Below are positions 1,081-60,219 of a DNA stretch of 64,000 bases, in pieces; the first letter of the stretch is position 1, and every line of letters starts with the position of its first letter. Location: positions 20,234,629 to 20,298,628 of the forward strand of contig NC_081391.1 of the NCBI RefSeq assembly GCF_030684315.1, written 5' to 3'. The DNA is from Stegostoma tigrinum. Lineage: Eukaryota. A program made the translations under genes and the position numbers. The notes under the pieces are model-generated. The model saw only the letters and a list, made by a program, of their open reading frames with translations, was not told the origin of the DNA and made no database searches.

Positions 1081-1182
1081 CATGGAGAGATAAACATAGG
1101 AGGAATAGAGCTCCAGGTTGATCTGCTTGTTAACAGCATCCTCACAGTCCTTGTGGTAGTTCTGACACACTTGGGAGGCCAT
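1081..1182 (-). CDS. Ferritin M/heavy-chain-B-like copy A, exon 1 only (rest of gene lies outside the window)
   Basis: ATG at 1182-1180 gives [34 protein letters not shown], followed by a GTGAG donor. It is the duplicate of gene H exon 1 (43381-43482). Confidence 0.9.
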
Positions 1183-1249
1183 CTTCACTATTCCTGCTCA
1201 CTTTCACCTGGGCAACTCCAGAACTAAGCCTCTCAGCCACAAGCTCTTG

Positions 1250-1394
1250 GATTTAACCTCCTGGAACATCCTGCACTCAACCAGGGAATGACATCACCAA
1301 TGATGATTGACAATCCCTGATAGCCAATCAGGCATCTCCATGAGTGCAGGAGCCAATGAAGGGCATGGGGTGGAATGAGATCCCCAGAGCCAAT
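1250..1394 (-). promoter_or_regulatory. Proximal promoter of ferritin A (TATA-like, TGACATCA, four inverted CCAAT boxes)
   Basis: Degenerate TATA (TTAAATC) at 1250-1256; agggaatgacatcaccaatga block; CCAAT on the + strand at 1297, 1324, 1353 and 1390. The same block recurs upstream of the paralogs. Confidence 0.65.
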
Positions 1395-2321: not shown

Positions 2322-2627
2322 GGTGGCTCGGTGATTAGTACTACTGCCCCGGAGCGCCGCAGACCTGGGTTCAATCCCATCTTCGAGTGGCCGTTTGTGC
2401 ATTCTCCCTGGGGCTGTGTGGGTCCCCTTCAGAAGCTCTGGGTTCTTCCCACAGTCTAAAGACGTGCACAACAGGTGGACTGGCCGTGCTATGTTGCCTT
2501 TAGCAAGCAGGCTAGGTGGGTTAGCCATGGGGAAATGTGGGGTTAGAAGGATGGGGTGGGCCTGGGTGCAATGCTCGTCAGAGGATCAGTGTGGGCTGAA
2601 TGGCCTAGTTCCACACTGTAGGGATTC
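2322..2627 (+). mobile_element. tRNA-derived V-SINE (HE1-like)
   Basis: A-box-like gtggctcggtgattag and B-box gggttcaatccc; V-domain-like ttcttcccacagtctaaagacgtgca...ggtggactggccgtgcta; CR1-like 3' tail gggctgaatggcct...acactgtagggattc. Confidence 0.75.
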
Positions 2628-3185
2628 ACTGATTTATATTCCAGCTCCACTGCCTTGCAATGAACATTAAAATGCAATTAGCATTTTAAAAACATCTCAT
2701 TTACTCTCTACAAGTTGTTAATAATTTCTGCACGCAGATCCCCAAACACACTCTGCGCCTATTTAGCTCCTCGCACTACACTATTTCAGAACACACTGAT
2801 GTGTGTGTCTTGGTCTGAAGTACTCTTCCTCAGATTAAATTCTACTGGTCAATATTGTCTATTTGCTTTATTAGTGCCATCTGGTTCTGCGTGGCAGAGG
2901 CAGGTTTATTATTGGCAGTGTTCAAGAGGCACTGGGTAATTAAACAGGAACAACTTGCCAGTTTATAGGGAAAGGCAGAAGATTCACAGAAAGGGTAAAG
3001 TGCTCAGAGACCGAGTGCAAATGAGACAGTCTGATGGGCCGTCTTCTACAGTATGATAATGCTGTTGCGCTTCCATCAGGATGAGCTGGCTCACCTCCTC
3101 GGGAAACATGAAGACAACCAATGTGAATGAATTAACTACCACTAGATCAAGGGCAGACTTTGAGACAAACCAAGACATCAGTTGT

Positions 3186-4520: not shown

Positions 4521-5225
4521 AAACATCTATCCCACGAGCTCCAGATTTAACCAGGAGCTGAAAAAAAAAACCAAACCCCATCCTCTCCAAGTCTGCTATT
4601 AGAAGGTCAGAGTAGAAGCTGATATCTTTTTATATCGGCTCACTAAAGCCTTAATTTAGGGAGGGTGGGGGTCTTAGCCTTTCTAAAAGAGAAATGACTT
4701 GCTGCCTGCCAGATGTAGTGTAAGGGAAGTCAGGTACTGAGCAAAAAAACCCGAAATAGATGCTTCAAATGTGGGAAGCCTCTGAACATCTAAGGGATGA
4801 GTCAAGCTTTCCTCAAAAAGTAAATAGACACCACAAGAGTGCTTTTGACCTCTGGCTTTGAGAGATGATTTCAATATTTTATCAGTACTGCTGCAACATT
4901 TTGCTGAAGATAAACTTGGTTGCTCGTACTGCTGCAAACAAGGGGCAATTGCCCCATATATAGCCAAATGCTTGTCCACTCACTGACTCCAAGTATCTTT
5001 GGACAGTCATCCCTGTTGACATTATCCAGCTGGTCCAAGGAATTGGACCAAAGTCAGCAAACCATATCCAAGTTGTTGGGAATGGACAAAATCCTTGGAA
5101 GATATTGGATAGGCTTTGGGCTGCAGAATTACAGAAAGCTAGACAGCTTTGGTTCAATGATTTTTATTTCATATTCCAGTACAAGCAAAAGAGAATGCAA
5201 GGACCAAGTGATTGTAAAATCCCAC

Positions 5226-7397
<2,172 letters not shown>

Positions 7398-7462
7398 CTT
7401 CACACCTAATTACAAAAAGCAAACCCAAACAACAGCCTAACCCCACCTCCCATGAGCTCTAG

Positions 7463-7611
7463 TATATATGTAAATGGGAATCTGCATTCCAACAGGAAGT
7501 TATCACCAATAGTGCTTGGCTATTAGGGATTTCCAATCAGCAGGCTCCCATGAATACAGGCATTAATTAGGGAGAGGTGCTGGGGGGAGCTATGTACAAA
7601 GCAGAGCCAAT
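7463..7611 (-). promoter_or_regulatory. Proximal promoter of ferritin B
   Basis: TATATA at 7463-7468, 65 nt upstream of the ATG; CCAAT on the + strand at 7506, 7533 and 7607. Confidence 0.55.
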
Positions 7612-9970
7612 CGGAGCAGTGGGAAACCAGCAGGTTTCAACAGTTTGGGCCATGGGAACAGGAGGAGACCATTCAGCCCCTCAAACCTATTTCAGTATTT
7701 AATTAGATCTTGGCTGGTCTGCTTCTCAGTTCCATATAAACTACCTTCTTCCATAAAGCGGAATCATAGAATCCCATCACAAATTCACCAAAGATCCTCA
7801 GCTGGCACCTTCCAAGCAGATGACCATTTCCATCTAGACAGACAAGGGCAGCAGACACGTGAGACCACCACCAACTTCAAGCTCCCCTCCGAGCCACTCA
7901 CCATCCCGACTTGGAAATATGTTGGCGTGCCTTCAGTGTCTCTGGGTGGAAATCCTGGAATTCCCTCTGTACGGCCATCGGGGTCGACATGGACTGCAGC
8001 GGTTCATGAAGGCAGCTGAACCCCACCTTCTCAAGGGGAATCTAGCAATGTACAACAAATGCTGGCCCAACCCATGACTGCCCTTGTCCCGCAAGTGAAT
8101 ACTCAAAAAAATTACAGTGCCGGAGGAGGCACTGAGTGTAGATAGGTCAGCACAGACCTGATGTCTATGGCCCGAATGTCGATCTCTTTGTAATCCAGAC
8201 AGTTCTGTGCCTGTCCACCAGCTCTTGCAATTTCTGCAGATGGATCCCATAACCTTATGGTCATCACCAATTCTGTTCCCCGAATTTCACCGTTTAGCTA
8301 ATTTCTCTTTCTTGTTCCGAAGTGCATGGCCTCACTCTTCCTCACATTGAGGCCTGCCTGCTGCTGTTTGCTCATTCATTTCAACAATGGCTTGTTGCAA
8401 ACTTTCTGGTCCCATCCACACCATCCACTTTGTCGCTTAACTTTGTTTTGTCAGGAAATTTGGACATATATCTCTCGAGTCCTTCATCTACGTCAATCTG
8501 TCAATGTGAAACTGAAGCCCATGTGGAGATCCCTGGGAGTGAGAGTCAAATTTTGTCAATCAAAGTTGGCAGCCATTCTGTCAGCCACCTTCCCCCTTCC
8601 CAATTCCCAACCCATGTCCAACAGTAACTTCCTATTGTACGCGCATGCATTTTTCCTAATTATGTCATGGATACTCGTCATTGTTGGAATTGATTTTAGT
8701 TGCTTTGACTGTTCTCAAACTGATAGCATCAGTCCTCCAGGTCAGAGCTCCCCAGTTCACCTTAGGGTTTGACGAGTTTGTAAATGAATATTTCTCCCTG
8801 TACATGATGTCGAATTAAATGACATCTGAAGGTTTGAAGCATCTCTCATCTGATCCAGAAGAGGTCAGGGACACTGACACTGATCACAGCAGTTGAGGAT
8901 ATTACCCTGCACGAGATAGCCTGCAGCAAATCTGCAAATCAACCAGTCCCACTGGGAAAACAATGTCTCACTTCTGCACCCCTGCCCTCCTCAGGACTGA
9001 CTCTGAGCACTGCAGTATATGGAAAATCACTGTTCAGTTAGTTTGCGACATCCAGGGTAAGCACCAGGATTCCTTACTCATTTAATTGCATGCTTGTGAC
9101 AAAAAAAAATGGGAGCCAGCGTCCACGTGGCGGACTCCCAGTGCAATGGCCACCTACCTCTGTACAACAGAGACTCTATCACTGGTGTGTCTCGCAAGCC
9201 AGCCGGCAAGCAGGCTGTTGTTTGGATAATGAGTGCTTTCCTGAAGTTTGGCAGAGGGCACAGTTGTTTGTCATAAACTCAGCTGTGTTAGCTGTTAATT
9301 GCCAGTGCCGAGGGCAGAAAGTAAAAGGAAGCATCAGCCCACCCACTATTAAACTTGGGGGAAAAAAAAAAGAGAGTTTTCTAACCACGTGCCAGCAGAA
9401 TGTATTTCACATGTGCACCAACTACTTTGCTGAGATGCTCAAGTCACACGTAGGCCAGATCAGGTAATGGTAGCAGATTTCACTCCTCATGAAAGATTAG
9501 TCAAACAGAAGAATGGTAGATATGCAAAACTGTCAGATAGTAAACTGCCCTGATACACCGGCTGTCTCTTTAGGTCTTTAAGGATTCTGCAAGCTCTCAG
9601 CTCACATTTGGAAGAAAGTTGAGCACTGGCTGCCAAACCTCAGTAAAGTAAGGAACTGCAAAAGCATGTTTAAGAGAAGTGTTGTGTAGTGACAGCATCG
9701 CTAGACCAGGGTGGTCAGATTTGAGCCCCACCTGAGAGGTGATTAACATCCAAAAATGAATTGATTATCAGAGGGTTCAACTGTGTCAAAAGGTGACAGA
9801 AGCACCTGCCATACAACCTAGATATGATGGATCTGAACAAAAATCAGTTATTCAATTTCACTAAAAGTGTTTCTTCATTATGGAGATTTTATTTTCCAAT
9901 TCAACAAGGGTAGATAAAGTTTCTAAAAGACTAATCCATTTACAGCACTGATGGGATTCTAAAATCCCAC

Positions 9971-12286
<2,316 letters not shown>

Positions 12287-12353
12287 TGTCACTATTCCTG
12301 CTCACTATCACCGAGACAGCTCTCATATCAAGTCTTTGTACCACAAGCTCCAG

Positions 12354-12480
12354 TATTTATACTCCTGGGACATCCTATGTTCAACGAGGGAATGACATCA
12401 CCAATGATGACTGACATTCCCTGAAAGCCAATTAGGAATCTCCCATGAATTTAGCCCCGCCTCTGCCCTCCCACCAATTA
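12354..12480 (-). promoter_or_regulatory. Proximal promoter of ferritin C
   Basis: TATAAATA at 12361-12354; TGACATCA next to CCAAT (12401); further CCAAT at 12428 and ~12475; GC box ccccgcc at ~12455. Confidence 0.7.
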
Positions 12481-12769
12481 GAGAGAGGGTGTGGGTGTAT
12501 TCGGCAGAGCTGATCAGAGGTGCAGATTGTTGTCAAGTCTGGATGGTTATTCTGTGATTGGATCAGCAGTCGGTCATTTAGAATCTCCAATCTGCTGGAA
12601 CTCTCTATCGGGCCATGGTTAGTTTGAAAAATAAAACTAGATTTGGATTTGGAAAGCTTTTCTTTTTAAACTAAGCTTGTTGTGACCAACTGCAAGAGGT
12701 GCTCAATGAAGGAGAATCAGTTTCTGATCATGTTCTGCTGGGATATTGGAGAGAAAGGTCGGAGATTGG

Positions 12770-13560
12770 TGGTAGTTCCTAGAAATTTGTAACAGAAACA
12801 AACAGGACAAAGACAGGAAAGATGTTTCTGATGACCAATGCGCCCAGAACCAAGGGTCACTGTCTAAGGATATAGAGTAGACTGTTTGGGATTGAGATGA
12901 GGAGAAATGTCTTCAGCCATACAGTGGGGAGTCTGTTGTATTGTCTGGGACAGGAAACAGTTGAGGCCAAAAGACTGAAGGTTTTGAAGAGTTAGATGTA
13001 GCTGATCGGGCTATGGGGATCAAAGGGTATGGAGAGAGAGTGTGAAGATGGTACGGAGTTAAGGGATTACCCATCATCATATGGAATGTCAGAGCAGGCT
13101 GGAAGGGCTGTATCAAAATGGTTCATAATTTTGAACATTTCAATCAGGTCATCTTTTAATCGTCTCTGCTCCAAGGAGATAAGGCCAATTTTTAAAATCT
13201 TTCCTGGTATCATTCCAGCAAATCTCCTTTGCACCATGTCCAGGGCTTTAATGCCCTCCCTTTGAAACAGTGCCCAGAATTGAACACAATACTCTAATGC
13301 GGTCTGACCAATGGTGTGTAGTGGTGTAGCGTTACTACCTTGGTTTTATACTCCATGGCTCTCCTTAAAAACACAAGATTCCTATAAGCCTTCTTCATGA
13401 CTGTTTCATCTTGCCTGGCCACCTTCAGGGAATTGTAGTTTTAAATCCTGAGGGCTCCCTGCTCCTGTACTCACCTTGACGTTGTTCCATTGTACCTGTA
13501 TTATCTCTTCATGTCTCCATGTTTCTTCGACCAAAATGCATTTCTTGCATTTTTTTGTGT
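12770..13560. mobile_element. Old CR1 LINE relics (+ strand 3' end, then a - strand ORF2 piece)
   Basis: Degenerate similarity to the CR1 copies at 3186 and 29921 (ccagaaccaagggtcac..., gatgaggagaaatgtcttcagcc, cccagaattgaacacaatactc). Paralogous relics at ~29010-29790 and ~57090-57880. Confidence 0.6.
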
Positions 13561-14619
13561 TGAAATTATAAAGTGATTGCCAACATCAAATCTTACCCAA
13601 TAAAAATCAAGAGATGCTAATTTTGAAGTCTTCAACTGACACCGGACATGTGTGTGTGTCCACTACCCACTATCCTTTCTGTGAAGAGGCTGTTTCTGAC
13701 ATTATCCTGGGCCGTTTAGCACTAATTTGAAGATTCTATATCCGTTCCATACCTTAAGTCCTAGAAGACCCATTGAGAAGAAACAATTCCTCTGAATCTA
13801 CCCTGTCAAGTCCATTAATGGTCTTAAAACTTTCAAGTACTGCCATCTCTTAACCTTCCATACTGAGGGACTCGGGCAAGCTGCCATCATCATTTAACCA
13901 GCTCTTTATCTCTGAGTTGATTCTGGAAATTCTCGGCTGCACCATCTTCAGGCCCAACCTGCCGAAAATGAGATCTCCAGGGATGGTTGAACCAGAACTT
14001 GACAATTTCATAAAAAACTCCACCCAGAGGTGTTCAAATCCCTTAGAGATCAGGACTGACATTGAATTAATTTCTTTGTTCAGTGTTTTTATATCTCGTC
14101 TCTAGTTTCAATACATTTCTGTCCACTTGTCTCAGTTTCATTTTGATCATTAGTTTTGACAACCCAGCAGAAGATGTCCCCATTTCTAAAACACTCTGGC
14201 TCACCTTTCTTGGTCAGGAGTGGATAACTTCGCACTTCCCCTTATTGAACTGTATCAGCCAGTCTTCCCCACTCCATGGAAGTTTGAAACATTCCACTGT
14301 CATGATAAAGTGCCACTTGATGTAATGCCATCAGCAAATATTTGAATTGTGGCTGTCCATTTCTTCATCTCGAACACTTATAATCCAAGGAAAATTTAAG
14401 GCCCCAGTTTCTCTCCTTGGGGAAAGTAATCACATCTTGCTTTTTCTTTTATTACCTCATGGGATGAAGGTGTTGTTGGCTGGCCCAGCATTTATTGTAC
14501 TTCCCTAATTATTATTGTCTTCTTGAATTGCTGTTGTCCATTTGGTGCAGGGAGATCCATAATGCCATTTTGGACAGAATTCCAGGATTCAGATGGTATG
14601 ACTGTAGATTGAGTTTTGC

Positions 14620-14830
14620 CTCATGAGCTTCATTGAGTATTTTGAAGATTTGATGTAGAGCAATGATGAGGGCAGAGTGGTGGGCGTGATCTACATGGAC
14701 TGCAATGAAGCGTTTGACAATGTTGCTCATAGTAAGCTGTTTAGCAAAGTGAGATCACATGGAATCCAGGGAGAATTATCCATTTGGATACAGAAATGGC
14801 TCAAAAGTGGAAGGCACAGGGTGCCGGTAG
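14620..14830 (+). mobile_element. CR1 reverse transcriptase fragment, truncated by a Penelope insertion
   Basis: VGVIYMDCNEAFDNVAHSKLFSKVRSHGIQGELSIWIQKWL resembles the CR1 motif DVVYMDFSKAFDKVPH. Paralogs at 31954 and 58999. Confidence 0.75.
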
Positions 14831-14832
14831 AG

Positions 14833-15560
14833 GCAACAAAGTGTGGAGCCGGAGGAACACAGCAGGCCAGGCAGCATCAGAGGAGCAGAAAAGCTGATGT
14901 TTCGGGTTGAGACCCTTGAGAAATTGGGAGGGGGAGGGGAAGCTCAGAAATAAGGAGGAGGGGTGGGACTGGGGATGGTAGGTGGGATGGTGATGGGTGA
15001 GTGCAGATAGGGAGTGGTCAGTGAGGTGGGAGAGAAGGCCAAGGAGGTGGGGATTGGTCATGGGATGAGGACACTTTGAAGTTAATAAGGTTAATAAGGT
15101 CCACATTTAGTGTCTTGGGCTATAAGCTCCCAAGGCAGAATATGAGGTGCTACTCCTCTAGTTTGAGGATGACATTGGTGTGATACTGGAGGATGCCCAA
15201 GATGGACAGGTCAGCCATGGAGTGGGAGGGGGGGGTGGAAGTTAAAACATTTTGTGATTGGAAAGTGTTGTTGTTTGTTGCTCATTGAGCGCAGATGCTC
15301 CAGAGAAACTGTCTCCCTCATGGTGGCTACATTGGGTGCAGCCGATACAATAGACCAACTTGAAACAGGTGCAGGTGATCTGTGTCTGATGCCGAAGGTT
15401 TGTTAGTTTTTATTTTGAATGGAGACACGGGGTGGATGTGGTGGTGGGGCGAGGGGGTCAGGGAATGGTGTAGCTGTTCCTGCAGTTGCAGGGAACAGGG
15501 CTGGGGTTAATGGGGAGTACAGAGTGGATGAGTGAGTGGCAGGGACACCAGCGTAGAGGT
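14833..15560 (-). mobile_element. Degenerate, internally deleted Penelope-like element
   Basis: Terminus aaagtgtggagccggaggaacacagcaggcc...gctgatgtttcgggttgagaccctt, followed by sequence homologous to the GIY-YIG region of 18431-19775. Confidence 0.7.
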
Positions 15561-15832
15561 ACTGTGGTGTCCACAGTAAGAGGGGCTATGCCTGCTTCTG
15601 TCGGATATGTGGAACAGTCCCTCTTCTGCTGCTCCACTGGCACTATCCCCTACCTTTTCCTTACTCAAAGATTGAAAGTAAATAGCCAGCTACATTGCTG
15701 TGTGGGTGGTGAGTCAGCTGTCGGCCAACTGCTTTCCTTCCCTGAAAGGGTTAGAAAAGTTTAGAACTGCTGAGAGTTGGTCTTTCTGCAAATTAAGTGA
15801 AGTGTCTCTTCTACTCTGACCCGCCCCAACCG

Positions 15833-15897
15833 AAGCCGAGATGCTATGAAGGGAACTCTGCAGATAAAGAAGGTGAACCAGAGTCTCCCGGATCCCC
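15833..15897 (+). pseudogene. Inverted (+ strand) relic of ferritin exon 3
   Basis: gatgctatgaagggaactctgcagataaagaaggtgaaccagagtctcccggatc aligns to sense exon 3 gaggcaatgcagagagctctgcagatggagaaggatgtgaaccagagtctgctggatc. Confidence 0.7.
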
Positions 15898-16837
15898 TTG
15901 TCTACAAATGTAGCTTTAATTGCACCAGCTGTCCTCAGCAGTTGATTGCTGGAGCAAGAACAGGGACTATGCCACGTTTGTCCCACACGCGACAAGGTGG
16001 GCATTGAGGATAGGAGACACTGTTACAGGAGAGAGCAGATTCCTCACTCAGTCTCCTACAGTGGAGACTTGTTAGAAAATCCAATTCCTTAGCTTGGGAA
16101 ACGAGAACAGTGGTGTATTGCTTGCCCAAAGAAGCATGGAGAAAAAGCAACTTGCATGCCAGATGCTATTGCTGTTACAGTCTTATTAAGGAATATTTTG
16201 AATGCTTAGATTCTACCAGTAAAGTTAACAGAATATTACTGGCAAAACTGAGGCCTGGCAGCACCTGGAGACAGACTTCAGTTGTGGAGTCACCAGGCTC
16301 AACCATTAACTGGTTTAATCAACACACATCCAGAGTTTCACCTGCACCTACCCCGCCACCCCGCAAACCCCAGCAATTTCTATTTTGTTTGATCCCAGCT
16401 TTTAGGAAAGTTGGAGCATTGCTCGGGACAGGGCACCAGTTAAGTGGCTAACAGTTAGATAGAGTGGAGCAATTTTGGTGAAGCTATTCACGAGAGACTA
16501 CTCTTACAGAATTGTCACAGTGAGGACAAGACAGATAGTGAGCATTGCGAACAAGCCAAAAGCTTAACAGTTGTGATTTCCGCAACAATTACTCACTTCA
16601 AAAATTCTCCTGGCTCTGGATTCAGAAACTGAACAAAAATTGCCAGGGCAAGCATCGATTCAATGCAGAGAGCAAAAAGCCGAAGGGACTGAATAATCAG
16701 ATAATAAACAGCCAAATAAATGAAGCAGTCACTCAAAGTCGTCAGATACATGGGCAATGTTTTCATTGACTTTTTTGTGCACTCTGCACTTGCACTAGAA
16801 CACCAGTGTGCAACAGATGGAGTTGTTGAATCCCCAT

Positions 16838-16982
16838 TCAGCTCAGGCTGAGCCTCTCAAACAGATACTCTCCTTTGCCCTTCTGAGGGGCTCCCAGTCT
16901 CTTCAGGTTGGTGATGTGATCTCCCAGCTTTTTGATCATCTTCACTTGCTCATCCAAGTAGTGCCTCTCCAGGAAGTCACAG
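16838..16982 (-). pseudogene. Ferritin copy D, exon 4 only (2-nt deletion; exons 1-3 lost)
   Basis: [46 protein letters not shown]; gaagtcacagct versus gaagtcacacagct in intact copies. The upstream intron runs into a Penelope fragment at 17297. Confidence 0.9.
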
Positions 16983-17296
16983 CTGGAAGACAAGACAAGT
17001 TAGTTGAGTCCATTGAAGACATTTGGAAGTGACCCTCAATTCAGATCTAACAAATCACTGCCAAGTTGAGGGAGAGGGGCACTCTGGTGATTCATTTGGA
17101 CTGTTGTAGATTTAACAGTCTGCAGGAGGCAGTTATGAGACAATTGTATTCCCCCTCCCCCCAGGAGTAGACAAACAGATCACTTTCAGGTTAGAAACAT
17201 TCATCTTTCCTGTAATTTGAAAGTCATCCTGGTAGTTTGTTGCTCTGAAGGCCATCAGCCCTACATGCTGAATTTAGCAGTGGATGGCAAGGAAGC

Positions 17297-17725
17297 ACAC
17301 AACCAGCCCAGCTCTTCCCCTCCCCCCACTGCACCACACAACCAGTCCAACCTGTCTCTGTCTCCCTAACCTGTTCTTCCTCTCACCCATCCCTTCCTCC
17401 CACCCCAAGCCACACCTCCATCTCCTACCTACCAACCTCATCCCACCTCCTTGACCTGTCCATCTACCCTGGACTGACCTATCCCCTCCCCACATCCCCA
17501 CCTATACTCTCCTCTCCACCTATCTTCTTTTCTCTCCATCTTCGGTCCGCCTCCCCCTCTCTCCCTATTTATTCCAGTTCCCTCCCCCCATCCCCCTCTC
17601 TGATGAAGGCTCCAGGCCCGAAACGACAGCTTTTGTGCTCTTGAGATGCTGCTGGGCCTGCTGTGTTCATCCAGCCTCACATTTTATTATCTTGGATTCT
17701 GCAGCATCTGCAGTTCCCATTATCA
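17297..17725 (+). mobile_element. Penelope 3'-terminal fragment with a degenerate hammerhead core
   Basis: Reverse complement of the 18431 terminus, ending ctgcagttcccattatca. Contains ctgatgaaggctccaggcccgaaacgac at 17600-17627. Confidence 0.85.
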
Positions 17726-17819
17726 CTGTTTTGTTGTCCAGCCGGCTTGGGGGGAAACTGAGCACGTTCTGGCCTTTTTAATTCGGCTTTCATATCTGCC
17801 CACTGCCACACGGTTATTA

Positions 17820-20230
17820 CGGTGCTGATGGTGACCATTCGGCCCATCGTATCCACCACCAACTCGCTGAGCGTTTCACCTCTTGCCATTCTCCTGCACT
17901 GTCCCTGTAATCTCCATGTTATTCCCTTTCAGATATCAGTCCTATTCCCTTTTGAATGCGTGAATTGAACCTGCCTCCAACACACTCTCGGACTATACAT
18001 TTCACACCCTATCCACTCGCTGTGTTGGAAGGTTTTTATTTTCGCAGATCACTTCAGCTTCTTTTGCCAATTTTAAACCTGTGCCGTCTTGCACCTGACC
18101 CTTTCACAAATGGGAACATCGTGCCACTGTTTGTTCTTTCTGGATCCGTATTTGAGCCATTTGCTTTCCAGAGAGAAGAGTTCCAGCTTCTCCAATATAT
18201 CCTCACACCTGAAATTCCTCATTCCTGGAGCCATTCCAGGAAGCCTCCTCTGCACTGTCTCCAGTACGTCCACTCTTTCCTTCAGTGTGATGTGCAGAAT
18301 GAGACACAGTATTCCTGTTGGAGTCAAACTTAAGCAGCTTCAGCATAATCACCTTGCTCTTGTACACTTGCCCCTACTAATAAAGCTCAGGGCACTGCGA
18401 GCTTTGTAAACGATTCTCTTAAACAGTCCTCAGAGATAATGGGAACTGCAGGTGCTGGAGAATCTGAGATAACAAAGTGTAGAGCTGGATGAACACAGCA
18501 GGTCATGCAGCATTTGGGCCTAGACCCTTCATCAGAAAAGGGAGATGGGGAGAGAATTCTGAAATAAATAGGGAGAGGGGTAGGCGGACTGAAGAAGAAT
18601 AGAGGAGAAGGTAGGTGGAGAGGAAAGTATGGGTGGGGAGGTAGGGAGGGGGTAGGTCAGTCCGGGGAGGATGGACAGGTCAAAGGGGCCAGGTGAGGTT
18701 AGTAGGTAGGAAATGGAGGTGTGGCTTGAGGTAGGAGGAGGGGCTAGGTGAGAGGAAGAACAGGTTATGGAGGCTGGGACGAGCTGGGCTGGTTTTGGGA
18801 TGCAGTGGGAGGAGGGGAGATTTTGAAGCTGGTCAAATCCACATTGATACCATTGGGCTGCAGAGTTCCCAAGCGGAATATGAGTTGCTGTTCCTGCAAC
18901 CTATGGGTGGCATCATTATGGCACTGCAGGAGGACCAGGATGGACATGTTGTCTCAGGAATGGGAGGGGGGAGTTGAAATGGTGCACGACTGGGAGGCGC
19001 AGTTGTTTACTGCGATCTGAGCGTAGGTGTTCTGCAAAGTGGTCCCAAGCCTCTGCTGCATTTCCCCAATGTAGCAGAAGCTACACCGTGTACAGCAGAT
19101 GCAGCATACCACATGGGCGGATGTGCAGGTGAACATCTCTTTGATGTGGAAAGTCATCTTGGGGCCTGGGATCGGGGTAAGGGAGGTGGTGTGGGGGCAG
19201 GTGCAGCACTTCCTGCGGTTGTAGCAGAAAGTGCTGGGTGTGGTGGGTTTGGACGGGAGTGTGGAGCAGACAAGGACGTCGCAGAGAGAATGGTCTCTCC
19301 GAAAGCAGACAATGGTGGGGATAGAAAAATGTCTTTGGTGGTGGAGTTAGATTGTAGATGGCAGAAGTTTCGGAGGACGATGCGTTATATCCAGAGGTTA
19401 GTGGGGTGGTATGTGAGGACTAGGGGGATCCTCTCGGGGAAGTTATTGCGAGGGTGGTGTGTGAGGGATGAGTTGTGGGAAATGCGGGAGACACGATTGA
19501 GGACATTCTCGCCCACTGCAAGGGGGAAGTGGCGGTCCTGTAAGAACGAGGACATCTGGGATGTGCAGGAGTGGTATGCCTCTCCTTGGAGGAGATGGGG
19601 CAGAGGCAAAGGAATTGGGAATAGGGGATGGAGTTTTTGCAGGAAGGTGGGTCGGTTGAGGCGTATTGCAGGTAGCTGTGGGAGTCGGTGGGCTCGAAAT
19701 GGACATCGGTTTGTAGGTGGTAGCCTGAGATGGAGACAGAAAGTCCAGGAAGGTGAGGGATGTGTTGGAGATGGTCCTTCCACCTTCAATGATGTAATGC
19801 AAATACACCATACAGTTCACTCACTCCTGCACCCTCTTTAGAAATGCACCTTTTATTTTGTATTGTCTCTACATGCTTTTCCCACTTTGAACTTCATCTG
19901 CCACTCGATTGCCGATTCCACCAATATGTCTGTGCCCTTTTGAGGTTCGACACCATGGTCCTCACTCTTATTTTCTTATCATGTACAAACTCTGAAATTG
20001 CATCCCTTATACCAGGCTGTATGTCATTAGCTAAGTTTAGAAAAGCCTGGCTCCTCCCCATAACCCATGGAACTCCACTACAAACCACCCCCTCATCCAA
20101 AGAGCATCCATTGGCATCACTTATGTTTCCAGTAATGCAGCCAACTCCATATCCCTGTCACTGCGCTGCCGTTCATTACAGGGGCTTGAACATTGTGTGG
20201 CACTGTATTATATGTCTTTAGGAAGCCCAC
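17820..20230 (-). mobile_element. Old CR1 LINE relic interrupted by a Penelope insertion
   Basis: Minus-strand ORF VDVLETVQRRLPGMAPGMRNFRCEDILEKLELFSLE (18073-18327). CR1 sequence resumes after ~19775, with GVVCSGVPWVMG (a decayed [10 protein letters not shown]) at 19894-20100. Confidence 0.7.
18431..19775 (-). mobile_element. Penelope-like retroelement, 5'-truncated (RT thumb, Cys linker, GIY-YIG endonuclease, pLTR)
   Basis: Frameshifted pieces TSLTFLD, RIPLVLTYHPT, FTCTSAHVVCCICCTRCSFCYIGE and RLQEQQLIFRLGTLQPNGIN. The terminus reads cagagataatgggaactgca on the + strand. Confidence 0.92.
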
Positions 20231-21463: not shown

Positions 21464-23650
21464 TCAGCTCAGTGAGAGCCTGTCAAACAGGTACTCTCCC
21501 ATGCCATTGTCAGGGGCTCCCAGTCTCTTCAGGTTGGTGATGTAATCTCCCAGCTTCTTGATCATCTTCACTTGCTCATCCAGGTAGTGCCTCTCCAGGA
21601 AGTCACACAGCTGGAACAAGGAGCCAGAATGTAATGTTAGAGCAGACACATCAACAATCACACCATTGCGCTTTTGCAGTGATATAAGTGTGAATAAGTG
21701 CTGGTATTTGAGAGCAGCTTGCTCTCCAGAAACAATGAACAGACTGGAATAGCTTTATTTGCAACTTTGCAAATGCAGAAATGGTGACAGAAACCTGAGT
21801 TTACCCACCAGGGATCAAACTGCCATTTCACAGAATTGGGTGGAAGTTCTAAACACTTACGCCTCTCACCAAGTCAGCAAAGCACATATCAGTGACTGAC
21901 ATCTATGTTCAGGATGGCTGCTGCTCTCAAACACTGGGACAATAGCAAGCCTATGCTTGTAGAACAGGAATAGCAGATTCCCATGTCACCTTGAGCTCCC
22001 TCGAGACATGCATCCCATCAGGAACTCACATGAGGGTCCGTGTGGCTAGAGGCGAGTTTGTGCAGATCCAGCAGACTCTGGTTCACATCCTTCTCCATCC
22101 GCAGAGCTCTCTGCATTGCCTCCAGACCATTGCCCCACTCATCCTGCTCTGGCTTCTGGAGGGAGAAGACAGTCATTAGTGAGGTTAGAAGGTCCAAGAC
22201 TCGTACAAAGGCAAGAAAATGAAGACATGTGGTAATCTGTGCCATATCCAAACCAAGGATTAATAACAATTCACAATTCACAGAAGGTCATGGAGACCAT
22301 TATCAGACATTTGATCCATCATTAAGAACTGCTGACAGATCAGGGCTAAAGACTGAAACATTTGGATGAAGTTACCTGTATTCAGGCTAGTCTACAGTAA
22401 TGTATCAGTCTAAACTGTCATTGGGGCAAGTTCAGTGCTAAAACCCTTTCATTCTGATTTGTTGATCTTTCAGAAAAGGAAAGAATTAGCAAAACCAACT
22501 CACATCAAGCAGAGACTTTCTATCAAGACACCTCACTCATCTCAACACAAGATGTACAGGGGAGTCTGGGACACCAAGGCCATTGCACAAGCAAGAAACA
22601 ACACAATTTGCATTTACTACAAGAGATAGACCCCAACCTTGATGTCCTGCAGGAGAACACGGCCACCACGTTTATTCTGGAATGCCATCAGTTTCTCAGC
22701 ATGTTCCTGTTCCTCATGGGACTGCTCCTTGAAGAACTCTGCAAAGTGACGGAGGGCAACATCATCCCGGTCAAAGTAAGAGAACTGTAAGCAGAAGGGA
22801 ACAGAAGGCAAGACTAAAATTTCATCACCAGCTTAAAGAGTAAAATAGTAACCTATTTAACAACTGACTGTATCACAAGTCACTTAACAAATAAACAGGT
22901 GACAATTGATCACAGCATTGATGTTACACATCATCTCCAGACAAACATTCCTCTCCTCCTTCCCCCACCACCCTACTCAAGTCAGCAACACTAGCTCCTC
23001 CCCCAAAAGGAACCCAATAATTAGAGACTAAAATATAATCTAATACTGTAATTGCTTCATGGAAACATCCAGTATTAAACATGGACATGAACATTAGACT
23101 TTTCCTGACACCATACACTTCAGAACATAAAAGACAGAGGAGGATGCTAACCAATTGTGCAGTAAGGCTCAGCAGTTAGCACTACTGCCACACAGTGCCA
23201 GGGACCAGGGTTTGATTAAAACTGTGCATGTGAAGTTCACACATTCTCTCCAAAGATGTGGGTTTCCTTTCACTGCCCATATATGCTAAATTGCCCATAG
23301 TGGCCAGGGCAGGGTCACAAGGGGACAGTAGGTGGGAGTGCTCTTGAGATGGACTCAATTGGACAAGTGACCTATATCTACATTATGCAGATGCTAATGA
23401 TTATGATACCCAGCCAAAGAGAACCACTCTCAGAAGGAGTAATTTAGATTTCAACACTCTGCTTATTAAAGAGGAGAACTTCTAGGTCTTATCAGATTTA
23501 CATTTAAATGCATTGTCTCATTTTACAATGCAGACAATCAAGCCTCACCATGGAGAGGTAAACATAAGAGGAATAGAGCTCCAGGTTGATCTGCTTGTTA
23601 ACAGCATCCTCACAGTCCTTGTGATAGTTCTGGCACACTTGGGAAGCCAT
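21464..23650 (-). CDS. Ferritin M/heavy-chain-B-like subunit, copy E (173 aa, intact)
   Basis: Exons 23549-23650, 22638-22784, 22030-22155 and 21464-21610, GT-AG, open frame. Motifs [15 protein letters not shown] and LGDYITNL...FDRLSLS*. Confidence 0.93.
23160..23400 (+). mobile_element. Degenerate V-SINE in intron 1 of ferritin E
   Basis: ggctcagcagttagcactactgccacacagtgccagggaccagggtttgatt...atgctaaattgcccatagtg is homologous to the SINE at 2322. Confidence 0.6.
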
Positions 23651-23717
23651 CTTCACTACTCCTGCTCACTATCACCTCAACACCTCCAGAACTGAACTCC
23701 TTTCCGACGAACTCTTT

Positions 23718-23850
23718 TCTTTATACTCCTGGGTCATCCTGCAATCAACCAGGGAATGACACCACCAATGATGACAGCCAATGAGGAATTGGCATGCATC
23801 CAGGCACCAATGAGGGGAATGGGGTGGAGTGAGATACTCAGAGCCAATCA
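23718..23850 (-). promoter_or_regulatory. Proximal promoter of ferritin E
   Basis: TATAAAGA at 23725-23718; agggaatgacaccaccaatg; further CCAAT boxes at ~23778, ~23807 and ~23844. Confidence 0.65.
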
Positions 23851-26409: not shown

Positions 26410-28536
<2,127 letters not shown>

Positions 28537-28603
28537 CTTCACTATTCCTGCTCACTATCACCTAGACAACTCTAGCACTAATCCTTTGTACTACAATCTC
28601 TGG

Positions 28604-28730
28604 TATTTATACTCCTGGGACATTCTACGCTCAACGAGGGAATGACATCACCAATGATGACTGACATTCCCTGAAAGCCAATTCGGAATCTCCCATGAAT
28701 TTAGCCCCGCCTCTGCCCTCCCACCAATTA
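28604..28730 (-). promoter_or_regulatory. Proximal promoter of ferritin F
   Basis: TATAAATA at 28611-28604. The TGACATCA-CCAAT block and GC box are nearly identical to those of gene C. Confidence 0.7.
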
Positions 28731-34199: not shown

Positions 34200-35958
34200 T
34201 CAGCTCAGGCTGAGCCTGTCAAACAGATACTCTCCTTTGCCCTTCTGAGGGGCTCCCAGTCTCTTCAGGTTGGTGATGTTATCTCCCAGCTTCCTGATCA
34301 TCTTCACTTGCTCATCCAAGTAGTGCCTCTCCAGGAAGTCACAGCTGGAAGACAAGACAAGTTAGTGGAATCCACTGAAGACATTTGGAAGTGACCCTCA
34401 ATTCAGATTTAACAAATCAATACCATGTTGAGGGAGAGGGGCACTCTGGTGATGCGTTTGGACTGTTGTAGATTTAACAGTCTGCAGGAGGCAGTTATGA
34501 GACAATTGTATTCCCCCTCCCCACAAGAGTACACAAACAGATCACTTTCAGGTTGGAAACATTCATCTTTCCTGGAATTTGAAAGTCATCCTGGTAGTTT
34601 GTTGTTCGAAAGGCCATCAGCCCTACATGCTGAATTTAGCAGTGAAAGGCAAGGAAGCTTATTGGAGAGAAAGTGAGGAACTCACATGAGGGTCTGTGTG
34701 GCCAGAGGAGAGATTGTGCAGATCCAGCAAACTCTGGTTCACATCCTTCTCCTTCTGCAGAGCTCCCTGCCTTGCCTCCAGATCATTGACCATGGTCAGT
34801 CTTCTGAAGCGGCAGCGTGGGGGTGGATGGCAAGAGACAAGACACATCACTTAAAATGCAAGAAACCAGTGAAAAAAGCAACAAGACCTCCATCTCATTA
34901 GGAGAGTGTATAACAGCTAAGAGATTATATCCAAAGCATTAAAATGCTATAATATTCAGGGCTTAAAAAGCCTTCTTCAGGACAAAATGACATTTCATTA
35001 AACCCAATCTTGATGTCCTACAAGAGGAGCATGCACCCACATTCTGGAATGCCATCAGTTTCTCAGCTGTTCCCATTCCTTCGAGGAACAGTGCCATGAG
35101 AACTCAAAGTGACACAGGACAACATCTTCCCAGTCAAAAGTGAAAGGATTGTAAACAGGGAAACCCATTGGGGTTTGTTGTTAAAGATCCTTCTCTACTT
35201 GAAATGCTTCTTCAGTCAGGCCTGCAGGTTCTGGAAGGGAAAGCCTCCCTTGTAAATCACAACAAAAACAACACCATAATAGATTGAGGTGTAGTTTCTT
35301 GCCTTGTGAAGCAGGAGGGAAGGAAAAGGATCATCTTCCTACAAGTTGGGTCTTGAATATTTCATACTTGACACAAAATATTAAGTATTAAAATAAAACC
35401 TCATCATTCCAAAAGGCCATATGGGTAGGGAAAATGGCTCAGCTTCAGCAAGGAAACCTTCCAACACAGAACAGGATTCTCAGCTCTGGAGTGAACTAGC
35501 AAAGTTTATTAGTGAAGTATTGACAGCAAATAGAACTCAGGATTGTGACAGTGTTCCTCCCTCTGGGATGGAGGTCCAGGGTCGCATACGCTCTAGAGGT
35601 CAGACATATTATCTCTAGACAGATTAACACTATTCAATAGAATAAATCCAATTACATTGTACAGAAAAACACGCACAGACTTCCCAGGTCATACATCAGG
35701 ATCAAACCATTAAAAGATTATTCACTTCTCAAGGTCAGGGAAAGGCCACAGAAGATTCTAAAATATGAATTGAATGATGCAGAGAGACCCTACACCCACA
35801 ATACATTGAGGCCACAGCTTGAAATCTGAAATAAATCCAGAGAACACCACTGTCACCATGGAGAGGTAAACATGGGAGAAAGAAAGCACCAGGGTGATCT
35901 GCTTGTTAACAACATCCTCACAGGCCTTGTGATGGTTCTGCCACACTTGGGATGGCAT
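34200..35958 (-). pseudogene. Ferritin copy G, decayed 4-exon pseudogene
   Basis: Exon 1 at 35857-35958 (MPSQVWQNHHKACEDVVNKQITLVLSFSHVYLSM; E27 ligand lost). Exon 2 at ~35009-35148 has indels, a TAG and broken splice sites. Exon 3 at 34686-34803 is shortened. Exon 4 at 34200-34344 has a 2-nt deletion. Confidence 0.92.
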
Positions 35959-36025
35959 CTTCGCTATTGCTGCTCACAATCACTTGGACAACTCTAGAAC
36001 TGAGTCTCCCTCCAACAAGCTCTTG

Positions 36026-36185
36026 TATTTATACTCCAGAGACCATCCTGCACCAACCAGGGAATGACATCACTAACAATGATTGACAATCTCTGACAGC
36101 CAATCAGGAATCTGCAAGAACCCAGTCACCAATGAACAGAGGAGGAGGAGAGTGGGGCAATGTGCTGAGACCCAGAGTCAATCAG
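36026..36185 (-). promoter_or_regulatory. Retained promoter of pseudogene G
   Basis: TATAAATA at 36033-36026; agggaatgacatcac; CCAAT at ~36100 and ~36129. Confidence 0.55.
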
Positions 36186-40514: not shown

Positions 40515-43482
<2,968 letters not shown>

Positions 43483-43549
43483 CTTCACTATTCCTGCTCA
43501 CTTTCACCTGGGCAACTCCAGAACTAAGCCTCTCAGCCACAAGCTCTTG

Positions 43550-43694
43550 TATTTAACCTCCTGGAACATCCTGCACTCAACCAGGGAATGACATCACCAA
43601 TGATGATTGACAATCCCTGATAGCCAATCAGGCATCTCCATGAGTGCAGGAGCCAATGAAGGGCATGGGGTGGAATGAGATCCCCAGAGCCAAT
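43550..43694 (-). promoter_or_regulatory. Proximal promoter of ferritin H
   Basis: TTAAATA at 43556-43550; TGACATCA; CCAAT at 43597, 43624, 43653 and 43690. Confidence 0.65.
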
Positions 43695-47518: not shown

Positions 47519-49691
<2,173 letters not shown>

Positions 49692-50679
49692 CTTCACACC
49701 TACTTACAAAAAGCAAACCCAAACAACAGCCTAACCCCACCTCCCACCATTTCTAGTATTTATGTGAATGGGAATCTGCATTCCAACAGGAAGTTATCAC
49801 CAATAGTGCTTGGCTATTAGGGATTTCCAATCAGCAGGCTCCCATGAATACAGGCATTAATTAGGGAGAGGTGCTGGGGGGAGCTATGTACAAAGCAGAG
49901 CCAATCGGAGCAGTGGGAAACCAGCAGGTTTCAACAGTTTGGGCCATGGGAACAGGAGGAGACCATTCAGCCCCTCAAACCTATTTCAGTATTTAATTAG
50001 ATCTTGGCTGGTCTGCTTCTCAGTTCCATATAAACTACCTTCTTCCATAAAGCGGAATCATAGAATCCCATCACAAATTCACCAAAGATCCTCAGATTGC
50101 ACCTTCCAAGCAGATGACCATTTCCATCCAGACAGACAAGGGCAGCAGACACGTGAGACCACCACCAACTTCAAGCTCCCCTCCGAGCCACTCACCATCC
50201 CGACTTGGAAATATGTTGGCGTGCCTTCAGTGTCTCTGGGTGGAAATCCTGGAATTCCCTCTGTACGGCCATCGGGGTCGACATGGACTGCTGCGGTTCA
50301 TGAAGGCAGCTGAACCCCACCTTCTCAAGGGGAATCTAGCAATGTACAACAAATGCTGGCCCAACCCATGACTGCCCTTGTCCCGCAAGTGAATACTCAA
50401 AAAAATTACAGTGCCGTAGGAGGCCATTTGGCCAATTGTGCTGCACCAGATCCATTGTGCTCATCTCTTGCCATGTCCCTGCACATCACCACGATCCCAA
50501 AAGAAAACCCAATGCTCTCTTCAAAGCTTCAATTGTATGTGCCCTCCCCACGTCTCCAGGCAGCACATTGCGCATACTCTCCACATTCTGTGTAAAAATG
50601 TTTTTTTTTCTCACTTCACCCTTGCTTTGTTTGCACATCACTTTAACTATCCCCTCACGTATCTACTTTTTAAAATTTG

Positions 50680-54299: not shown

Positions 54300-56620
<2,321 letters not shown>

Positions 56621-59156
56621 TGTCACTATTCCTGCTCACTATCACCGAGACAGCTCTCATATCAAGTCTTTGTACCACAAGCTCCAGTATTTATACTCCT
56701 GGGACATCCTATGTTCAACGAGGGAATGACATCACCAATGATGACTGACATTCCCTGAAAGCCAATTAGGAATCTCCCATGAATTTAGCCCCGCCTCTGC
56801 CCTCCCACCAATTAGAGAGAGGGTGTGGGTGTATGAGGCAGAGCTGATCAGAGGTGCAGATTGTTGTCAAGTCTGGATGGTTATTCTGTGATTGGATCAG
56901 CAGTCGGTCATTTAGAATCTCCAATCTGCTGGAACTCTCTATCGGGTCATGGTTAGTTTGAACAGAAAACTAGATTTGGATTTGGAAAGCTTTTCTTTTT
57001 AAACTAAGCTTGTTGTGACCAACTGCAGGAGGTGCTCAATGAAGGAGAATCAGTTTCTGCTGGGATCTTGGAGAGAAAGGTCGGAGATTGGTGGTAGTTC
57101 CTAGAAATTTGTAACAGAAACAAACAGGACAAAGACAGGAAGGATGTTTCTGGTGACCAATGCGCCCAGAACCAAGGGTCACTGTCTCAGGATACAGAGT
57201 AGTCTGTTTGGGATTGAGATGAGGAGAAATGTCTTCAGCCATACAGTGGGGAGTCTGTTGTATTGTCTGGGACAGGAAACAGTTGAGGCCAAAAGACTGA
57301 AGGTTTTGAAGAGTTAGATGTAGCTGATCGGGCTATGGGGATCAAAGGGTATGGAGAGAGAGTGTGAAGATGGTACGGAGTTAAGGGATTACCCATCATC
57401 ATATGGAATGTCAGAGCAGGCTGGAAGGGCTGTATCAAAATGGTTCATAATTTTGAACATTTCAATCAGGTCATCTTTTAATCGTCTCTGCTCCAAGGAG
57501 ATAAGGCCAATTTTTAAAATCTTTCCTGGTATCATTCCAGCAAATCTCCTTTGCACCATGTCCAGGGCTTTAATGCCCTCCCTTTGAAACAGTGCCCAGA
57601 ATTGAACACAATACTCTAATGCGGTCTGACCAATGGTGTGTAGTGGTGTAGCGTTACTACCTTGGTTTTATACTCCATGGCTCTCCTTAAAAACACAAGA
57701 TTCCTATAAGCCTTCTTCATGACTGTTTCATCTTGCCTGGCCACCTTCAGGGAATTGTAGTTTTAAATCCTGAGGGCTCCCTGCTCCTGTACTCACCTTG
57801 ACGTTGTTCCATTGTACCTGTATTATCTCTTCATGTCTCCATGTTTCTTCGACCAAAATGCATTTCTTGCATTTTTTTGTGTTGAAATTATAAAGTGATT
57901 GCCAACATCAAATCTTACCCAATAAAAATCAAGAGATGCTAATTTTGAAGTCTTCAACTGACACCGGACATGTGTGTGTGTCCACTACCCACTATCCTTT
58001 CTGTGAAGAGGCTGTTTCTGACATTATCCTGGGCAGTTTAGCACTAATTTGAAGATTCTATATCCGTTCCATACCTTAAGTCCTAGAAGACCCATTGAGA
58101 AGAAACAATTCCTCTGAATCTACCCTGTCAAGTCCATTAATGGTCTTAAAACTTTCAAGTACTGCCATCTCTTAACCTTCCATACTGAGGGACTCGGGCA
58201 AGCTGCCATCATCATTTAACCAGCTCTTTATCTCTGAGTTGATTCTGGAAATTCTCTGCTGCACCATCTTCAGGCCCAACCTGCCGAAAATGAGATCTCC
58301 AGGGATGGTTGAACCAGAACTTGACAATTTCATAAAAAACTCCACCCAGAGGTGTGCAAATCCCTTAGAGATCAGGACTGACATTGAATTAATTTCTTTG
58401 TTCAGTGTTTTTATATCTCGTCTCTAGTTTCAATACATTTCTGTCCACTTGTCTCAGTTTCATTTTGATCATTAGTTTTGACAACCCAGCAGAAGATGTC
58501 CCCATTTCTAAAACACTCTGGCTCACCTTTCTTGGTCAGGAGTGGATAACTTCGCACTTCCCCTTATTGAACTGTATCAGCCAGTCTTCCCCACTCCATG
58601 GAAGTTTGAAACATTCCACTGTCATGATAAAGTGCCACTTGATGTAATGCCATCAGCAAATATTTGAATTGTGGCTGTCCATTTCTTCATCTCGAACACT
58701 TATAATCCAAGGAAAATTTAAGGCCCCAGTTTCTCTCCTTGGGGAAAGTAATCACATCTTGCTTTTTCTTTTATTACCTCATGGGATGAAGGTGTTGTTG
58801 GCTGGCCCAGCATTTATTGTACTTCCCTAATTATTATTGTCTTCTTGAATTGCTGTTGTCCATTTGGTGCAGGGAGATCCATAATGCCATTTTGGACAGA
58901 ATTCCAGGATTCAGATGGTATGACTGTAGATTGAGTTTTGCCTCATGAGCTTCATTGAGTATTTTGAAGATTTGATGTAGAGCAATGATGAGGGCAGAGT
59001 GGTGGGCGTGATCTACATGGACTGCAATGAAGCGTTTGACAATGTTGCTCATAGTAAGCTGTTTAGCAAAGTGAGATCACATGGAATCCAGGGAGAATTA
59101 TCCATTTGGATACAGAAATGGCTCAAAAGTGGAAGGCACAGGGTGCCGGTAGAGGC

Positions 59157-60154: not shown

Positions 60155-60219
60155 AAGCCGAGATGCTATGAAGGGAACTCTGCAGATAAAGAAGGTGAAC
60201 CAGAGTCTCCCGGATCCCC
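60155..60219 (+). pseudogene. Inverted relic of ferritin exon 3 (duplicate of 15833)
   Basis: Same sequence as 15833-15897. Confidence 0.7.

What the first reader, a model, noticed from the sequence alone, without database searches (positions are those of the whole stretch)
12286..12361. Every ferritin copy appears to lack an iron-responsive element
Seen: in A, B, C, E, F, G, H and J a TATA-like box lies only ~65-70 nt upstream of the ATG, implying a ~40-45 nt leader. None of these leaders contains CAGTG. The nearest matches (TAGTGA, twice in ggtgaTAGTGAgcaggaaTAGTGA) have no complementary 5-bp stem. Known: vertebrate H, L and most fish M ferritin mRNAs carry a 5'-UTR IRE (C bulge + CAGUGN loop) bound by IRP1/2. 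Inference: this amplified family has escaped IRP translational repression, so output would be set by copy number and transcription rather than by cellular iron. This is the best candidate here for an undescribed regulatory system.
Basis: partly seen in the sequence, partly recalled or inferred. Interest (0 to 1): 0.8.

Follow-up and report, generated by a model that had tools for sequence, protein, structure and literature searches.

The report
Shark ferritin arrays without iron switch
A shark carries hundreds of tandem copies of iron-storage ferritin genes that lack the RNA switch which normally blocks ferritin production when iron is scarce, while two single-copy ferritin genes keep it; this fits an ovary-specialised storage ferritin like those known from snails.

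Summary
The window is part of a 1.6-Mb tandem ferritin array in a shark genome, with a second 1.1-Mb array on the same contig. None of 115 array copies examined has a canonical or variant IRE within 300 nt of the ATG. The same scans find textbook IREs in two single-copy ferritin genes. TATA and initiator spacing, plus one apparently RNA-derived run with spliced joints and zero cover upstream of the TATA box, point to a leader of about 43 nt (a weak hint). Array 1 keeps the ferroxidase centre; array 2 carries L-chain substitutions. The two share a homologous promoter, are under purifying selection, and have relatives across sharks (array 1 also rays). The expansion and its ovary-specific expression are already reported for the Greenland shark, and IRE-less gonadal ferritins are known from snails. 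My 10 literature searches did not find the IRE loss reported for sharks. Best reading: an ovary-expressed storage ferritin uncoupled from IRP repression. It is loss of a known control, not a new regulatory system. Iron-independence and copy-number control remain untested.

The parts
12286..12361 (-). TATA box (12361-12354) and IRE-less G/U-rich leader; inferred start near 12329 (about 32 nt after the first T of TATA), leader about 43 nt
   Evidence: Sequence; TATA-initiator spacing in other copies; run X1 cover reaches at least 12318 and is zero from 12362; leader folds no better than shuffles, z -0.02
12393..12478 (-). Proximal promoter: TGATGTCA element (12400-12393) and three inverted CCAAT boxes (12401-12405, 12428-12432, 12474-12478), homologous between the two arrays
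12185..12286 (-). Ferritin exon 1 of the focal copy
11158..11304 (-). Exon 2 (ferroxidase EExxH motif intact)
   Evidence: spliced joint 10662-11158 in X1
10537..10662 (-). Exon 3
9971..10117 (-). Exon 4 with stop; 173-aa protein, no signal peptide-like extension; AATAAA at 9893-9888
1081..1257 (-). Exon 1 and promoter of a copy cut by the window edge (ATG 1182), no IRE
5229..7470 (-). Copy with ATG 7397; frameshift in exon 2; no IRE
21467..23725 (-). Intact copy, ATG 23650, no IRE
26413..28611 (-). Intact copy, ATG 28536, no IRE
34203..36033 (-). Degenerate copy, ATG 35958, exon 2 not detected, no IRE
40518..43557 (-). Intact copy, ATG 43482, no IRE
47522..49764 (-). Broken copy, ATG 49691, early stop and exon-2 frameshift, no IRE
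54303..56695 (-). Intact copy, ATG 56620, 99% twin of the focal copy, no IRE
16841..16981 (-). Orphan exon 4 (a twin lies at 61163-61303)

Best explanation
This is one unit of an old elasmobranch ferritin family, amplified into two tandem arrays and specialised for the ovary. A shared CCAAT-rich TATA promoter drives a short-leader mRNA with no IRE, so IRP1/2 cannot block its translation and ferritin can be made on a developmental schedule rather than on demand from the labile iron pool. Array 1 supplies ferroxidase-competent subunits and array 2 supplies L-type subunits, probably assembling into cytosolic storage shells that load or buffer iron for large yolky eggs. Somatic iron sensing stays with the two IRE-bearing single-copy genes. 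Shown here: IRE absence, retained IREs in two single-copy genes, array structure, residues, promoter homology, purifying selection. Hinted: short leader and transcription. Borrowed from another shark: ovary specificity. Inferred only: IRP independence in cells, co-assembly, egg provisioning.
For: 0 of 115 array copies with a canonical or variant IRE within 300 nt, 0 canonical within 1 kb, both controls found. Rfam: no IRE in 474 kb of array DNA, control found, none in 18 array loci at E up to 10. Genome-wide pattern: only the two control genes match exactly, and none of 13 one-mismatch hits lies on C50 or C216. Initiator-like A at +30 to +35 from TATA in 29 of 50 distinct array-1 promoters, 2.6% in shuffles, held while TATA-ATG distance varies from 55 to 77. 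Run X1: exon-exon joints, introns covered, zero depth at 12362-12845 where runs X2 and X5 go on. Ferroxidase positions intact in 39 of 39 array-1 proteins; E62K and Q141E equivalents in 12 of 12 array-2 proteins, K also in 9 of 9 tetrapod L chains. dN/dS 0.33, 0.24 and 0.24. Promoter alignment score 62 against 44 +/- 5 shuffled; leaders 31 against 27 +/- 3. Greenland shark cluster is ovary-specific (10.1101/2024.09.09.611499). Snail yolk ferritin lacks an IRE (PMC10799875).
Against: No tissue data for this species: X1's library is not on record, it is one run of contigs from one study, and the tool counts even two such studies as a weak hint. Only 115 of roughly 300 or more copies were read, and they include near-duplicates (65 and 18 distinct leaders). 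IRE status in other sharks was not testable. A permissive scan gave 6 of 95 array-1 copies a weak 4-of-5 hairpin with a non-canonical loop. 18 of 57 and 6 of 18 four-exon models fail the intact test. The arrays-as-sisters branch is unsupported in the protein tree (80/19). No oocyte-type CPE in 3' UTRs and no E-box enrichment in array-1 promoters.
Confidence: 0.62

Rival explanations
1. The IRE was lost passively when an ancestral copy acquired a tissue-specific promoter; amplification reflects birth-and-death turnover or dosage for a general antioxidant role (stress, immune or embryonic), and IRE loss has no special link to egg iron loading.
For: Leaders are not conserved between arrays; about a third of copies are broken; single-copy genes X and Y beside the array also lack an IRE; tandem ferritin expansion tied to ROS resistance in hadal snailfish (PMC10746142).
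Against: The orthologous-looking cluster is ovary-specific in the Greenland shark; both a catalytic and an L-type array are maintained under purifying selection across sharks.
Confidence: 0.2
2. The arrays remain iron-responsive by another route (transcription, a non-canonical IRP contact, or protein turnover), so the missing IRE does not mean iron-independent output.
For: Established knowledge that ferritin is also controlled by transcription and degradation (PMC7760355); IRPs tolerate some loop changes (10.1101/524991); a conserved TGATGTCA promoter element of unknown factor.
Against: No ARE- or MRE-like enrichment in array promoters (motifs recalled); IRP binding needs a stable 5-bp upper stem, absent here.
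Confidence: 0.12
3. The real transcripts start further upstream or use a non-coding first exon with an IRE, so the absence is an artefact of guessing the start from a TATA box.
For: No direct start mapping; 78 joints and 405 loose ends were not shown; three GU-rich CAGTG stems lie about 1.27 kb upstream of three array-1 copies and one 2.36 kb upstream of an array-2 copy.
Against: Zero X1 depth upstream of TATA while introns 1-3 are covered; no Rfam IRE anywhere in 474 kb of contiguous array DNA; conserved TATA-initiator spacing.
Confidence: 0.04

Closest known systems
Greenland and white shark ferritin clusters (bioRxiv 10.1101/2024.09.09.611499; passages read)
   Same: Hundreds of ferritin copies in a few clusters, called ancient, ovary-specific expression of the largest cluster. 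Very probably the same family (inferred; Carcharodon proteins fall in both array clades).
   Different: The preprint labels them FTH1 and FTL and its main text has no word beginning 'iron', so no IRE analysis. Here they form clades apart from true H and from the IRE-bearing single-copy gene Z.
Snail yolk ferritin (Lymnaea, Biomphalaria; PMC10799875 passage) and Schistosoma ferritins (title in a reference list only)
   Same: Gonad-linked ferritin without a 5' IRE beside classic soma ferritins.
   Different: Snail yolk ferritin is one gene, secreted (signal peptide) with a 42-aa insertion. The shark proteins are 173-176 aa, have neither, and are encoded by hundreds of genes.
Mammalian FTMT and FTHL17 (PMC7760355 passages)
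   Same: FTMT is not under IRE/IRP control; FTHL17 is a germline, multi-copy (six in mouse) ferritin.
   Different: FTMT is an intronless, TATA-less mitochondrial gene; FTHL17 lacks ferroxidase activity. The arrays keep the 4-exon structure and TATA, and array 1 keeps the centre. FTHL17's IRE status was not stated in the passages read.
Teleost M ferritin and fthl27 tandem expansion (PMC4117605, PMC10746142 passages)
   Same: 4-exon genes with ferroxidase centre; best solved relatives of exon 2 are M ferritins; tandem amplification (14 copies in hadal snailfish).
   Different: Salmon H1, H2, M1-M3 all carry IREs. The shark arrays do not group with teleost M and are about tenfold larger. IRE status of fthl27 was not found.

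Membership tests
IRE-regulated vertebrate ferritin mRNA | CAGWGH apical loop in the 5' UTR | tested here: not met
   No canonical loop with stem in 115 of 115 copies; bare CAGTG within 110 nt of ATG in 16 of 95 and 1 of 20, none with a stem
IRE-regulated vertebrate ferritin mRNA | 5-bp upper stem with bulged C and lower stem | tested here: not met
   controls H and Z meet it
IRE-regulated vertebrate ferritin mRNA | IRP1/2 binding and iron-dependent translation | not testable with these tools
   needs EMSA or reporter
Ferroxidase-competent (H/M-type) ferritin | E27, Y34, E61, E62, H65, E107, Q141 equivalents (numbering recalled) | tested here: met
   39 of 39 intact array-1 proteins
L-type ferritin (array 2) | Broken ferroxidase centre (K at 62, E at 141) | tested here: met
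   12 of 12 array-2 proteins; K62 in 6 of 6 other-shark array-2 relatives, E141 in 1 of 6
Orthologue of tetrapod FTL | Supported clade with tetrapod L chains and conserved synteny | tested here: inconclusive
   Arrays plus L grouped at 38/79; arrays plus Z not rejected, p-AU 0.346. A RUVBL-family gene lies 1.4 Mb from array 1 but no glycogen synthase was found on C50
Orthologue of FTH1 | Groups with vertebrate H chains, next to a bestrophin gene (synteny recalled) | tested here: not met
   The single C20 gene fills this place; the arrays do not
Snail-type yolk ferritin | Signal peptide and 42-aa insertion | tested here: not met
   173-176 aa proteins without extension or insertion
Snail-type yolk ferritin | No IRE in the 5' UTR | tested here: met
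Ovary-specific shark ferritin cluster | Ovary-restricted expression | not testable with these tools
   No run on record as RNA or with a tissue label

The most novel reading that the evidence does not exclude
Since before sharks and rays split, elasmobranchs have run a second, germline ferritin system beside the IRP-controlled one: two co-regulated IRE-less arrays, one catalytic and one L-type, that build heteropolymer shells in the oocyte regardless of labile iron, scale output by gene dosage, and resist NCOA4 ferritinophagy (Lys in place of the FTH1 R23 equivalent in 51 of 51 intact copies), giving a vertebrate counterpart of invertebrate yolk ferritin.
Probability: 0.25. Interest if true: 0.72.

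Novelty: new variant of a known kind. Interest (0 to 1): 0.5.

Why it matters
The 5' IRE is treated as a hallmark of cytosolic vertebrate ferritins and is even used to screen for genuine ferritin genes (PMC4117605). Here the great majority of a vertebrate's ferritin genes appear to lack it while staying transcribed and under purifying selection. That gives the published but unexplained shark ferritin expansion a testable regulatory logic, suggests convergence with snail yolk ferritin, and corrects the FTH1/FTL labels given to these clusters. It is a loss of control, so the surprise is moderate.

Tried and rejected
No RNA holder was listed for the gene; X1 is taken as RNA only from its spliced joints, and its depths were not used to rank expression. 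Replacement of the IRE by cytoplasmic polyadenylation elements: rejected; 0 of 12 array-2 and 5 of 39 array-1 3' regions had a CPE-like motif, and in those five no nearby hexamer was found. E-box oocyte signature: not enriched in array 1 (0.22 against 0.26), enriched in array 2 (0.84 against 0.19) but those copies are close kin. ARE and MRE motifs: not enriched. A conserved leader structure replacing the IRE: not supported. TAGTGA as a variant IRE loop: rejected for want of a stem. Resolving the arrays' parent gene by tree or synteny: unresolved. The genome-wide Rfam search scored only 82 of about 1.5 million candidates, so it is not exhaustive, and the two-mismatch list was cut before C50. 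About 60 further leaders that I wanted were not read. Earlier scan findings: none. PMC13193013 (passages) was irrelevant. No complex or structure prediction was run, because ferritin subunits would pass by likeness to solved structures.

Full report
Observation. The finding marks the promoter and leader of a four-exon ferritin gene on the minus strand (ATG 12286; exons 12286-12185, 11304-11158, 10662-10537, 10117-9971; 173 aa). TATAAATA lies at 12361-12354, 68 nt before the ATG, and the leader holds two TAGTGA and no CAGTG. The window has nine exon-1 copies and two orphan exon 4s. Five of the eight copies lying wholly in the window are intact. Rfam finds nothing in the window. The focal leader folds no better than shuffles (z -0.02), whereas the two control leaders fold into the classic IRE hairpin.

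Genomic setting. The window is G000:C50:20234629-20298628 of a 3.2-Gb genome. The closest named proteins are from the zebra shark Stegostoma tigrinum and other carpet sharks. Exon-1 searches, each capped at 150 rows from 420 and 412 candidates, show array 1 at C50 19.95-21.56 Mb, further copies on C216, and array 2 at C50 12.99-14.07 Mb. Densities in the blocks read (60 exon-1s in 464 kb; 18 in 173 kb) extrapolate to about 200 and 110 copies; this is an estimate, not a count. Beside array 1 lie three single-copy ferritins, X, Y and Z. A fourth, on C20 next to a bestrophin gene, groups with vertebrate H chains.

The IRE test. RF00037 on the genome gave two hits, upstream of H and Z (43.7 and 42.6 bits), though only 82 candidates were scored. 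A pattern from those IREs matches exactly only there, and none of 13 one-mismatch hits is on C50 or C216. I modelled 119 exon-1s from the window and fetched DNA: 95 array 1, 20 array 2 and four singles, with at least 1,048 nt upstream for every array copy. A stem-loop grammar found a canonical IRE in H and Z and in 0 of 115 array copies within 1 kb. Variant loops (list recalled) gave 0 of 115 within 300 nt and 7 copies within 1 kb. Rfam at gathering score found no IRE in 474 kb of array DNA and did find the control; at E up to 10 it found none in 18 array loci. Against this: a permissive scan gave 6 of 95 array-1 copies a 4-of-5 hairpin with a non-canonical loop, and four CAGTG stems rich in GU pairs lie 1.3-2.4 kb upstream of four copies. 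The 115 include near-duplicates (65 and 18 distinct leaders). X and Y have no canonical IRE either. Three aconitase-family genes are present, consistent with IRP1, IRP2 and ACO2; with two near-identical IREs retained, the IRP system looks intact (inference).

Where the transcript starts. In 29 of 50 distinct array-1 promoters an initiator-like motif has its A at +30 to +35 from the TATA T (2.6% in shuffles), and this spacing holds while the TATA-ATG distance varies from 55 to 77 nt (the copies are kin, so these are not independent). The focal copy itself lacks the motif. Run X1, whose library is not on record, shows exon-exon joints, covers all three introns (depth 549 or more), reaches at least 12318, and has zero depth over 12362-12845, where runs X2 and X5 continue. 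Covered introns with an empty upstream region argue against DNA carry-over and against an upstream intron. It is one run of contigs with truncated tables, so it is a weak hint, not a mapped start.

What the family is. Of four-exon models, 39 of 57 in array 1 and 12 of 18 in array 2 have canonical splice sites and a full ORF under fixed exon lengths. Array 1 keeps all seven ferroxidase positions (39 of 39). Array 2 has Lys at the E62 equivalent and Glu at Q141 (12 of 12); Lys is also in 9 of 9 tetrapod L chains and 6 of 6 array-2 relatives from other sharks. dN/dS is 0.33 within array 1, 0.24 within array 2 and 0.24 between them at dS 0.68. In a 36-row tree, array 1 is a clade with galeomorph and squalomorph sharks and a ray (97/98), and array 2 a clade with Heptranchias, Mustelus, Carcharodon and Chiloscyllium (99/99). 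Z has its own orthologues (100/99). Arrays as sisters (80/19) and arrays with tetrapod L (38/79) are unsupported, and arrays with Z is not rejected (an 80-row quick tree agrees). The promoters give separate evidence of common origin: the 130 nt above TATA align between arrays at 62 against 44 +/- 5 for shuffles, around a shared TGATGTCATT core and CCAAT boxes (3.6 and 2.6 per 400 nt against about 0.85), while the sequence after TATA does not (31 against 27 +/- 3). X scores in between (49 and 54). So the promoter is constrained and the leader is not. All 51 intact copies have Lys where H, Z, X and Y have the Arg matching FTH1 R23, whose Ala mutant fails to reach lysosomes (PMC11216947, one passage). 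Lys is a mild change and occurs in two cyprinid ferritins too, so this is only a lead.

How it most likely works. Transcription from the shared promoter in the ovary (borrowed from the Greenland shark) gives a short, weakly structured, IRE-less mRNA that IRPs cannot repress (inferred). Catalytic and L-type subunits are made in bulk, lack a signal peptide, and probably co-assemble in the cytosol as a store or buffer for the egg (inferred). H and Z continue to track cellular iron. Confidence 0.62. Since salmon H and M mRNAs, mammalian FTH1 and FTL, and H and Z here all carry IREs, absence in the arrays is most simply a loss; one loss before the arrays split is suggested by the shared promoter, but other sharks' leaders could not be read.

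Comparison with what is known. The expansion is published: 155 'FTL' and 179 'FTH1' copies in the Greenland shark, shared with the white shark, with ovary-specific expression (10.1101/2024.09.09.611499; passages; its supplements are closed and may bear on this). Snail yolk ferritin lacks an IRE but is secreted and has an insertion (PMC10799875; passage). Schistosome ferritins without IREs and ferritin in amphibian eggs were seen only as a discussion sentence and reference titles (PMC1488847). FTMT is IRP-independent and FTHL17 is a germline multi-copy ferritin (PMC7760355; passages). Hadal snailfish has 14 fthl27 copies (PMC10746142; passages). IRE features follow 10.1101/524991 (passages). 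Ten searches of the open library (listings and abstract starts only, apart from the papers named) showed no report of IRE loss in shark ferritin arrays; subscription papers are not covered.

Verdict. Real, genome-wide and well controlled as a sequence observation. It is a new variant of a known kind, an IRE-less and probably gonadal ferritin, unusual for its scale and two-subunit design. It is not a new regulatory system, and iron-independence is untested. Interest 0.5.

Noticed in passing
G000:C50:21591.5-21601.9 kb, + strand (L068, L069): Gene Y is a four-exon ferritin with an in-frame N-terminal extension of about 55 aa, rich in Arg, Leu, Gly and Ser and free of acidic residues, a GC-rich TATA-less promoter and no canonical IRE. 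A similar extension precedes its 80%-identical relative inside the horn shark model P0003. Candidate intron-containing mitochondrial ferritin, unlike the intronless mammalian FTMT.
   Followed up: partly
G000:C50:21580354-21570741, - strand (L066, L067): Gene X is an intact single-copy ferritin with a degenerate ferroxidase centre (Lys at E61, Gln at H65 equivalents), a TATA box at -124 and no IRE.
   Followed up: partly
G000:C50:12.99-14.07 Mb (L105-L122): Second ferritin array, L-type, about 7 Mb from the window, with longer U/A-rich IRE-less leaders and a conserved 133-nt 3' UTR.
   Followed up: yes
window 1-8130 vs 42299-50424 and 8962-19678 vs 53290-64000: Higher-order duplication with a period of 42-44 kb at 99% identity, including pseudogenes and retroelement fragments.
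   Followed up: no
G000:C50:19953.6-19986.6 kb (L079-L082): A run of 32,993 N near the left end of array 1; contig C216 carries at least 27 array-type exon-1s and may belong there or be an alternative haplotype.
   Followed up: no
window 12271-12269 (codon 6 of exon 1): Cys at residue 6 in 37 of 39 intact array-1 proteins where H, Z, X and Y have Arg and array 2 has Ser.
   Followed up: no
G000:C50:20.41-20.47 Mb (L124-L129): Array 1 switches orientation several times and has paired exon-1s 391 and 452 nt apart (20419240/20419631; 20864019/20864471), suggesting inversions and promoter-exon-1 duplications.
   Followed up: no
proteins P0102, P0109: Turtle ferritin clusters with 26 and 21 member sequences appear among the hits; they group with amphibian ferritins, not the shark arrays, and may be a separate expansion worth an IRE check.
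   Followed up: no
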